Shown in pieces: positions 10,838 through 11,079 of a DNA stretch of 11,079 bases (position 1 is the stretch's first letter; the number at the start of each line of letters is the position of its first letter). Location: the UHGV virus genome UHGV-0353412; one strand, given 5' to 3'. The stretch is from a virus. The notes below the pieces were generated by a model. The model ran no database searches and was not told the origin of the DNA. It saw only the letters and a list, made by a program, of their open reading frames with translations. The position numbers and the translations under genes were made by a program.

Positions 10838-10940
10838 TTATTCTTCTGCAAAAGCTGAAAAGCCTGCTTTTATTCCAATCTCTTTCAGTGCCTGTAATGA
10901 AGTGACAAACTCACCTTCGCGCAAGATAAATCCGTCTATC
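10838..10940 (-). pseudogene. 3' fragment of a nin-region gene truncated by the IS insertion (C-terminal 33 codons plus stop)
   Basis: The minus-strand frame reads ...IDGFILREGEFVTSLQALKEIGIKAGFSAFAEE then stop (TAA, plus 10838..10840), open up to the IS boundary at 10941, where its 5' portion is replaced by the IS element. Confidence 0.45.
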
Positions 10941-11079
10941 TGAACCGCCCCGGGAATCCTGGAGACTAAACTTCCTGAGAAAGAGGTAAACAGGATGACT
11001 AAAAATACTCGTTTTTCCCCCGAAGTCCGTCAACGGGCAGTCCGTATGGTTCTGGAAAGTCAGAGCGAATATGACTCAC
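10941..11079 (+). mobile_element. IS3-family insertion sequence, left end (IS629/IS1203-like); continues beyond the window
   Basis: The terminal sequence begins TGAACCGCCCCGGGAATCCTGGAGACTAAACTTCC (typical 5'-TG IS3-family inverted repeat; recalled as the IS629-type left end), followed 54 nt later by the orfA start. Confidence 0.85.
10995..11079 (+). CDS. IS3-family transposase OrfA (helix-turn-helix subunit), N-terminal 28 codons; continues beyond the window
   Basis: SD GAGG then ATG at 10995; translation MTKNTRFSPEVRQRAVRMVLESQSEYDS matches the N-terminus of IS629/IS3411-type OrfA as I recall it. Confidence 0.9.
   Translation, partial: MTKNTRFSPEVRQRAVRMVLESQSEYDS

What the first reader, a model, noticed from the sequence alone, without database searches (positions are those of the whole stretch)
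10838..11079. IS3-family element inserted into the nin region, truncating an upstream gene
The IS left end (TGAACCGCCCC...) at 10941 abuts the C-terminal 33 codons of a minus-strand ORF whose 5' part is missing. The insertion separates the Q-proximal nin genes from the early-region promoters upstream (pR and N-dependent read-through). That would be expected to reduce Q expression and make the prophage induction-defective, while leaving cargo genes with their own promoters (the lipoproteins and the cassette) expressed. Grounded or cryptic prophages of this kind often retain defence cargo.
Basis: partly seen in the sequence, partly recalled or inferred. Interest (0 to 1): 0.4.

Follow-up and report, generated by a model that had tools for sequence, protein, structure and literature searches.

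The report
IS629 insertion disrupting prophage antirepressor rem
The last 242 bases of the window are the left end of a common E. coli jumping gene (IS629, IS3 family) inserted into rem, the small antirepressor gene of a lambda-like prophage; this is an ordinary and already documented kind of prophage damage.

Summary
Window 10941-11079 is the left end of an IS629-type IS3-family element: a 25-bp inverted repeat starting TGAACC and an orfA start at 10995. It is 100% identical to copies in thousands of E. coli records. Window 10838-10940 (minus strand) is the last 33 codons of a truncated gene, not a small complete gene.

That gene is rem (83 aa). It is intact, and 100% identical over the retained part, in a prophage of E. 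coli O111:H21 15A that matches window 4600-10940 at 99.86%. K-12 Rem has been shown to act as an antirepressor of the CI-like repressor DicA. The clearest consequence is therefore a null allele of the prophage's antirepressor.

It can be neither confirmed nor excluded, because everything beyond the IS lies outside the window. The exact junction is absent from every collection searched.

Independent IS629-type insertions in or next to rem exist in other lineages. One is already annotated in GenBank (LC567828.1). In three lineages the far side of the IS abuts DNA that is not contiguous with rem, so a deletion of the early region here is also possible.

Verdict: real, ordinary, already known in kind, low interest.

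The parts
10838..10940 (-). 3' remnant of rem: the last base of codon 50, codons 51-83 and the stop. The start codon, RBS, promoter and first 50 codons are missing.
   Evidence: Translation. It is 100% nt identical to intact rem of O111:H21 15A (L001 6239-6341) and 30/32 aa identical to K-12 Rem residues 52-83. It matches phrog_340 at E=1.3e-8, the same family as full-length Rem.
10941..11079 (+). Left end of an IS629-type IS3-family insertion sequence, cut off by the end of the window
   Evidence: 100% identity to many annotated copies. It is identical to the left end of the 1310-bp copy in L014 and to a copy that PGAP names 'IS3-like element IS629 family' in L015. It matches depositor-annotated IS629 in LC567828.1 at 137/139.
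10941..10965 (+). Left terminal inverted repeat (IRL), TGAACCGCCCCGGGAATCCTGGAGA
   Evidence: IRL and IRR match at 23 of 25 positions in the full copy L014.
10995..11079 (+). First 28 codons of IS orfA (MTKNTRFSPEVRQRAVRMVLESQSEYDS), preceded by AGAGG at 10982-10986
   Evidence: Translation. The annotated transposase CDS starts at the same offset (54 nt) in L014.
10825..10852 (-). Promoter-like site (TTTGCA-16-TACAAT) inside the retained rem tail, reading toward the 92-aa ORF. Its function is unproven.
   Evidence: The number of such sites in the region is at chance level (2 found, 2.7 expected). The same site is present in the intact relative.
10493..10771 (-). 92-aa ORF of unknown function, the first intact gene downstream of the insertion
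   Evidence: phrog_1212, E=5e-36. It is always found next to rem in relatives.
9436..10491 (-). DUF968 / YdfU-like protein with an HNH-like region
   Evidence: PF06147, E=4.8e-64.
9055..9435 (-). RusA Holliday-junction resolvase
   Evidence: PF05866, E=4.6e-16.
8237..9058 (-). Late-gene antiterminator Q (273 aa), intact
   Evidence: PF03589 Antiterm, E=2.6e-55. A terminator-like hairpin at 8156-8137 lies downstream and is a candidate tR'.

Best explanation
An IS629-type insertion sequence (IS3 family; full copies are 1310 bp) sits inside rem, between sense nucleotides 149 and 150 of this 252-nt gene. The host element is a lambdoid prophage related to mEp460, Qin and CP-933O. The transposase reads in the opposite direction to rem.

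Shown: only codons 51-83 of rem remain next to the IS left end, with no start codon, RBS or promoter. This copy of rem is therefore a null pseudogene. The genes downstream of it (92-aa ORF, DUF968/YdfU, RusA, Q) are intact.

Inferred: K-12 Rem relieves repression by the CI-like repressor DicA, and the closest intact prophage encodes a DicA homologue. The prophage has therefore most likely lost its own antirepressor route to derepression.

Also inferred: the rem-to-Q block is now separated by at least the IS from whatever promoters lay upstream. These are pR and a promoter-like site just upstream of rem in relatives. Early transcription reaching Q is probably reduced but not necessarily abolished.

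Whether the rest of rem and the early region still lie beyond the IS is unknown.
For: - IS identity and boundary.
- Identity of the truncated gene: intact 83-aa rem in L001, 100% identical over the retained 103 nt, with window 4600-10940 at 99.86% (9 differences) to L001 1-6341. The tail is 30/32 identical to K-12 Rem.
- No in-frame start gives more than a 28-aa TTG ORF, and the in-frame reading from the IS contains stops.
- Rem as antirepressor: rem expression raised dicBp expression 165-fold, and filamentation depended on dicB/dicF.
- A DicA-like repressor (57% identical to K-12 DicA) and a DicC-like Cro are present in the closest intact prophage.
- The functional phage mEp460_ev081 has the same gene order: repressor, cro, YdaT, replication, hok, rem, DUF968, RusA, Q, TolA-like genes, lysis genes. 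It matches window 5199-9434 at 98.1%.
- The same kind of event is annotated in GenBank: 'rem ... interrupted by IS629', TSD TAA, in PPompW_EH2201.
- IS629 lies mostly in prophages (62% of sites) and makes 3-4 bp duplications.
Against: - The right end of the IS, the target-site duplication and the immunity region are outside the window, so a simple insertion is not demonstrated.
- Antirepressor activity has been shown only for K-12 Rem against K-12 DicA. The repressor that is presumably linked here is only 57% identical to DicA and was seen only in a relative.
- In K-12, deleting rem did not change spontaneous, urea-induced or heat-induced derepression of dicBp. Loss of Rem therefore need not abolish induction.
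- The signal that turns rem on is unknown.
- Another rem copy on a second prophage could complement in trans. Some genomes carry 2-3 copies.
Confidence: 0.9

Rival explanations
1. The IS acts as a polar barrier between pR (with N-dependent read-through) and Q. Q and the late genes are then not expressed on induction, and the prophage is grounded while cargo genes with their own promoters stay on.
For: The gene order and direction fit. In relatives the early rightward operon runs cro, YdaT, replication, hok, rem, 92-aa ORF, DUF968, RusA, Q on one strand. The IS lies antisense in that path. No promoter-like site facing outward from the IS left end was found.
Against: - It cannot be tested in the window.
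- No N gene or nut site was looked for or shown.
- Intact relatives already have a strong terminator-like hairpin (the hokD terminator) followed by a promoter-like site just upstream of rem. Q supply may therefore not be plain pR read-through.
- A promoter-like site is retained at 10852-10825.
- From my own knowledge, not checked here: N-modified transcription reads through IS-borne terminators (Adhya, Gottesman and de Crombrugghe 1974).
- IS629-carrying Stx2a phages, including those with IS629 in roi, were recovered from ciprofloxacin-induced phage DNA.
Confidence: 0.3
2. This is not a simple insertion. The IS marks an IS-mediated deletion or rearrangement, so the 5' half of rem, hokD and part or all of the replication and immunity region are gone. 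The prophage is then a remnant regardless of polarity.
For: In three independent comparator lineages with an IS629-type element in or next to rem in this orientation, the IRR side abuts DNA that is not contiguous with rem. These are a ydfE-like exonuclease pseudogene in O121 RM8352, a DUF977 fragment in strain E2, and dicB in Res13-Lact-PEA14-20. In O157:H7 only 21 of 47 IS629 sites had a matching duplication.
Against: Two other comparators are simple insertions with 3-bp duplications: LH13-b with GCC and PPompW_EH2201 with TAA. Nothing in the window bears on the question.
Confidence: 0.45
3. The 33-codon reading frame is a complete small gene that merely lies next to an IS.
For: A 28-aa TTG-initiated ORF exists at 10838-10924.
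Against: The stretch is the exact 3' end of an 83-aa gene that is full length in 2255 of the 2287 complete E. coli genomes carrying it. Homology stops exactly at the IS terminus.
Confidence: 0.01
4. The junction is an assembly artefact: a contig wrongly joined to, or broken at, a multicopy IS.
For: The window ends only 139 nt into a highly repeated element. The exact junction is found in no collection.
Against: The break falls precisely at the first base of the IS terminal repeat, as real insertions do. Independent insertions occur in the same gene elsewhere.
Confidence: 0.03

Closest known systems
IS629 (isoforms IS1203 / IS3411), IS3 family
   Same: The 139 nt present are 100% identical to full 1310-bp copies with 25-bp imperfect inverted repeats and a frameshifted orfAB transposase. 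They match depositor-annotated IS629 at 137/139. Location in a prophage is typical, since 62% of IS629 sites in O157:H7 are in prophages.
   Different: Only the left end is visible. The subtype, the integrity of the element and the target-site duplication are unknown. This exact insertion site was not found in any collection searched.
rem interrupted by IS629 in prophage PPompW_EH2201 of E. coli O157:H7 (GenBank LC567828.1)
   Same: The same gene family is hit by the same IS about 7 codons away. The downstream neighbours are the same: 92-aa ORF, ydfU, rusA, Q.
   Different: The rem allele there is divergent (tblastn 56.7% aa identity over the matched part). The IS has the opposite orientation relative to rem. 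That insertion is demonstrably simple, with TSD TAA.
Qin cryptic prophage of E. coli K-12 (rem, hokD, dicA/dicC, ydfU, ydfT)
   Same: The order hokD, rem, ydfU, Q is the same, and Rem is 79/83 identical in the closest intact relative. K-12 Rem is the characterised DicA antirepressor.
   Different: In K-12 rem is intact and Qin is crippled elsewhere. The window's prophage has RusA, a 273-aa Q, tRNAs, TolA-like cargo and, within the window, intact lysis and small-terminase genes plus the start of the large-terminase gene.
Escherichia phage mEp460_ev081 (deposited as a phage genome and described as functional in the Rem paper)
   Same: Gene order is the same from the repressor through rem, DUF968, RusA, Q, the TolA-like genes and lysis. 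It matches window 5199-9434 at 98.1%.
   Different: rem is intact there, and the lysis-proximal and packaging parts differ.
Phage lambda nin region
   Same: By position it is the dispensable gene block between the replication genes and Q, read from the early rightward promoter. It contains a Holliday-junction resolvase: RusA here, and NinG/Rap in lambda (the latter from my own knowledge).
   Different: No homologues of the lambda nin genes were detected among the ORFs scanned. N and the tR2-tR4 terminators were not shown.

Membership tests
IS3 family / IS629 | Terminal inverted repeat beginning 5'-TG, about 25 bp | tested here: met
   The IRL is at 10941-10965. It pairs with the IRR at 23 of 25 positions in a full copy with an identical left end. 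The IRR of this copy lies outside the window.
IS3 family / IS629 | Nucleotide identity to curated or annotated IS629 copies | tested here: met
   139/139 to the copy PGAP names 'IS3-like element IS629 family' in L015. 137/139 to depositor-annotated IS629 in LC567828.1.
IS3 family / IS629 | orfA and orfB joined by a -1 programmed frameshift, with a DDE (rve) transposase domain | not testable with these tools
   Only the first 28 codons of orfA are in the window. The feature is annotated in copies with an identical left end.
IS3 family / IS629 | 3-4 bp target-site duplication flanking a 1310-bp element | not testable with these tools
   The right end is outside the window. The exact junction is absent from all collections searched.
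Rem (PF27490 / phrog_340), prophage antirepressor | Sequence match to Rem | tested here: met
   The tail is 100% nt identical to intact rem of 15A, 30/32 aa identical to K-12 Rem, and matches phrog_340 at E=1.3e-8. The local Pfam and NCBIfam copies gave no hit even for full-length Rem. PF27490:Rem is listed for the intact neighbours.
Rem (PF27490 / phrog_340), prophage antirepressor | Complete ORF of about 83 aa with its own start | tested here: not met
   Only codons 51-83 remain, and the longest possible ORF is 28 aa from a TTG. It is a pseudogene fragment, not a functional member.
Rem (PF27490 / phrog_340), prophage antirepressor | Position between hokD and the 92-aa ORF / ydfU | tested here: inconclusive
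   The downstream neighbours are as expected. The upstream side is replaced by the IS.
Rem (PF27490 / phrog_340), prophage antirepressor | Relieves repression by the cognate DicA-type repressor | not testable with these tools
   This has been shown only for K-12 Rem and DicA.
Lambda-type nin region | Lies between the replication genes and Q on the early rightward transcript | tested here: inconclusive
   Q, RusA and DUF968 are downstream in the window. Replication genes were seen upstream only in relatives.
Lambda-type nin region | Homologues of the lambda nin genes (NinB to NinH) | tested here: not met
   The Pfam hits in this block are DUF968, HNHc_6, RusA and Antiterm only.

The most novel reading that the evidence does not exclude
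IS629-type elements have hit rem independently at least four times within codons 34-50, and twice more at hokD. The rem hits are the window, the O121 type, the E2 type and PPompW_EH2201. This could reflect a regional insertion hotspot. It could also reflect selection for loss of the antirepressor, which would lock the prophage in the repressed state and prevent Rem-triggered expression of the toxic DicB/DicF genes. That would be a specific, recurrent route by which lambdoid prophages become grounded.
Probability: 0.1. Interest if true: 0.3.

Novelty: already known. Interest (0 to 1): 0.1.

Why it matters
It matters little beyond annotation. It identifies the fragment as a disrupted antirepressor gene. 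That gives a more specific and testable prediction about this prophage than generic IS polarity does: Rem-dependent derepression is lost, and supplying rem in trans might restore it. It also warns that the early region may be deleted, as in three comparator lineages. IS629 insertions in prophage genes, including rem, are already documented.

Tried and rejected
- I searched for the exact rem/IS junction to recover the rest of the IS and the prophage. A 26-nt junction pattern found nothing in genome contigs or metagenome contigs.
- Junction-spanning BLAST queries against 5426 complete E. coli genomes gave only two-piece hits with the IS at other sites. There were no junction hits in phages or plasmids.
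- I tried to find the source contig through exact proteins. The window's lysozyme is not on record. The Beta_protein and the 92-aa ORF are common, and none of the contexts returned has the junction.
- I looked for LexA boxes (CTG-N10-CAG) near rem in K-12 and in the intact relative, because Gifsy-type antirepressors are LexA-controlled (my own knowledge). None lies near rem.
- Pfam and NCBIfam gave no hit for Rem or the 92-aa ORF.
- I considered an outward promoter from the IS left end driving the downstream genes. No promoter-like site was found there.
- I considered an in-frame IS::rem fusion protein. It is rejected because of in-frame stops.
- The shared orientation of the comparator insertions is not evidence of an orientation bias. 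That query included the IS end in one orientation and so could only join same-strand pieces.

Full report
**Observation**

Window 10941-11079 begins with TGAACCGCCCCGGGAATCCTGGAGA. It contains an ATG at 10995 preceded by AGAGG, and the reading frame encodes MTKNTRFSPEVRQRAVRMVLESQSEYDS. These 139 nt are 100% identical to elements annotated as IS3 family transposase in a large share of complete E. coli genomes. Matches occur in 3606 of 5426 genomes, and 1531 records are at 99% identity or more.

A copy with an identical left end (L014 2001-3310) is 1310 bp long. Its 25-bp terminal inverted repeats match at 23 of 25 positions. Its transposase CDS has a programmed frameshift and starts 54 nt inside the element, the same offset as the window's ATG. 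PGAP names another copy with an identical left end 'IS3-like element IS629 family'. The depositor-annotated IS629 of LC567828.1 matches at 137/139.

**The truncated gene**

The minus strand of 10838-10939 reads IDGFILREGEFVTSLQALKEIGIKAGFSAFAEE*. Window 4600-10940 matches a prophage of E. coli O111:H21 strain 15A (L001 1-6341) with 9 differences in 6341 nt. In that prophage the same sequence is the 3' end of an intact 83-aa gene annotated rem.

Identity holds up to window 10940 and is lost from 10941 on. The IS therefore lies between sense nucleotides 149 and 150 of rem. Codons 51-83 are retained, while the start codon, RBS and upstream region are removed.

No in-frame start gives more than a 28-aa TTG ORF, and reading in frame from the IS meets stop codons. 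The idea of a complete small gene is refuted. The tail is 30/32 identical to K-12 Rem and matches phrog_340, as full-length Rem does.

**Context**

Downstream of the fragment, on the same strand, lie these genes:
- a 92-aa ORF (phrog_1212)
- a DUF968/YdfU protein
- RusA
- an intact 273-aa Q antiterminator

A terminator-like hairpin, two tRNAs, two TolA-C-terminal-domain ORFs and the lysis genes follow.

In intact relatives the order is repressor, cro-like, YdaT, replication, variable cargo, hokD, rem, 92-aa ORF, DUF968, RusA, Q. Phage mEp460_ev081 has the same order and matches window 5199-9434 at 98.1%. The Rem paper describes that phage as functional.

'nin region' is thus correct as a position but not by gene homology. 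Apart from RusA, the scan of this block found no nin-gene family.

**What the gene does**

Ragunathan et al. (bioRxiv 10.1101/2023.04.14.536235) showed that K-12 Rem relieves DicA repression of dicBp. Expression rose 165-fold, and the resulting filamentation depended on dicB/dicF. They also note that mEp460_ev081 carries rem and dicA homologues.

The closest intact relative of the window's prophage encodes a repressor 57% identical to DicA and a DicC-like Cro.

The best-supported consequence is therefore loss of the prophage's antirepressor. This remains an inference for three reasons:
- The cognate repressor is not in the window.
- The inducing signal for rem is unknown.
- In K-12, deleting rem did not change spontaneous, urea-induced or heat-induced derepression.

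The IS does lie in the path of early rightward transcription toward Q, in antisense orientation. No outward promoter-like site was found at its left end. Reduced Q expression is plausible but untested.

Four points weaken it as the main effect:
- Intact relatives have the hokD terminator hairpin and then a promoter-like site (TTGAAG-18-TAGAAT) directly upstream of rem. The rem-to-Q block may therefore have its own promoter.
- A promoter-like site at 10852-10825 is retained, although such sites occur at chance frequency.
- N-type antitermination is known to override IS polarity. This is from my own knowledge (Adhya et al. 1974) and was not checked here.
- Stx2a phages carrying IS629, some within roi, were recovered as phage DNA after ciprofloxacin induction (PMC4587872).

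**What lies beyond the window**

The exact junction was not found in any of these:
- 5426 complete E. coli genomes
- PLSDB plasmids
- the phage collection
- GTDB representative genomes
- JGI metagenome contigs

The source contig could not be traced through exact proteins either.

Comparators show both possible outcomes. O121 RM8352, strain E2 and Res13-Lact-PEA14-20 have IS629-type elements at rem nt 100/101, at rem nt 102/103 and at the hokD start. In all three the far side of the IS abuts DNA that is not contiguous with rem: a ydfE-like exonuclease, a DUF977 fragment and dicB respectively. This points to IS-associated deletion of the early region.

LH13-b (TSD GCC) and PPompW_EH2201 (TSD TAA, annotated 'rem ... 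interrupted by IS629') are simple insertions. In O157:H7 only 21 of 47 IS629 sites have a duplication. I put the chance that this copy marks a deletion at roughly even.

**Frequency**

rem of this allele class occurs in 2287 of 5426 complete genomes. It is full length in 2255 of them, so disruption is uncommon, at about 1.4%.

**Comparison and novelty**

This is an IS629 insertion in a lambdoid prophage gene. IS629 is known to reside mostly in prophages and to drive their diversification (PMC3271280; PMC4587872). An IS629-interrupted rem is already annotated in GenBank.

Only the exact site is new. The one mildly interesting point is that at least four independent insertions fall within codons 34-50 of rem. 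The search was biased toward this neighbourhood and orientation, so I give the hotspot-or-selection reading a low probability.

**Verdict**

The finding is ordinary and of low interest.

Noticed in passing
window 1994-3061 (+) and 3003-3623 (-): A convergent, overlapping gene pair sits between the Rz lysis gene and the small terminase subunit. One gene is a Beta_protein (PF14350, E=7e-56). The other is a 206-aa protein that PGAP calls 'sce7726 family' and that precomputed Pfam hits list as Phage_P4_cII-like. It looks like a moron or a candidate defence cassette. It is common, with 1529 collection blocks carrying the identical Beta protein.
   Followed up: partly
window 5870-6265 (-) and 6416-6844 (-): Two ORFs with TolA C-terminal domains (E=1e-14 and 2e-23) lie between the tRNAs downstream of Q and the holin gene. 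The same genes are present in phage mEp460_ev081 (L031 11247-12221).
   Followed up: partly
window 7841-7917 (-), 8018-8093 (-), 8137-8156 (-): tRNA-Arg(TCT) and a CAT-anticodon tRNA lie just downstream of Q. ARAGORN calls the second one Met, while PGAP calls the equivalent gene Ile in relatives. A strong terminator-like hairpin (AACCCGCCGCCGAGCGGGTT followed by a T run) precedes them and is a candidate tR'.
   Followed up: no
L002 4498, L015 3498, L017 3996, L019 3970, L018 4239, L030 2746; window 10941: Independent IS629-type insertions cluster in rem: codon 50 in the window, about codon 43 in PPompW_EH2201, and codon 34 to 34/35 in the O121 and E2 types. Two more lie at the hokD start and upstream of hokD. 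Three of them are associated with loss of the adjacent early region. The clustering may be a regional hotspot, but the search was biased toward this neighbourhood.
   Followed up: partly
L001 6569-6637 (intact relative; the equivalent region is missing from the window): In intact prophages the hokD terminator hairpin (6637-6620) is followed by a promoter-like site, TTGAAG-18-TAGAAT (6598-6569), about 80 nt upstream of the rem ATG. This suggests rem and perhaps the rem-to-Q block have their own promoter. No LexA box is nearby.
   Followed up: partly
window 1-5558 versus 4600-10940: The window is a mosaic. Positions 1-5558 are 99.1% identical to one prophage type (L003, O78 strain 3). Positions 4600-10940 are 99.86% identical to another (L001, O111:H21 15A). 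The 9 differences from L001 fall in two patches, 4627-5063 and 7188-7731. No complete E. coli genome covers more than 76% of the window in one place.
   Followed up: partly
window 11079 (end) and window 1 (start): The window stops 139 nt into a multicopy IS and starts inside the terminase large-subunit gene, which is shared by many lambdoid prophages. This is the pattern expected of a short-read contig broken at repeats. It would explain why the rest of the IS is unavailable.
   Followed up: no
window 10911-11033 (-): A 40-aa TTG ORF spans the IS/rem junction in a different frame from rem. It is probably spurious.
   Followed up: no
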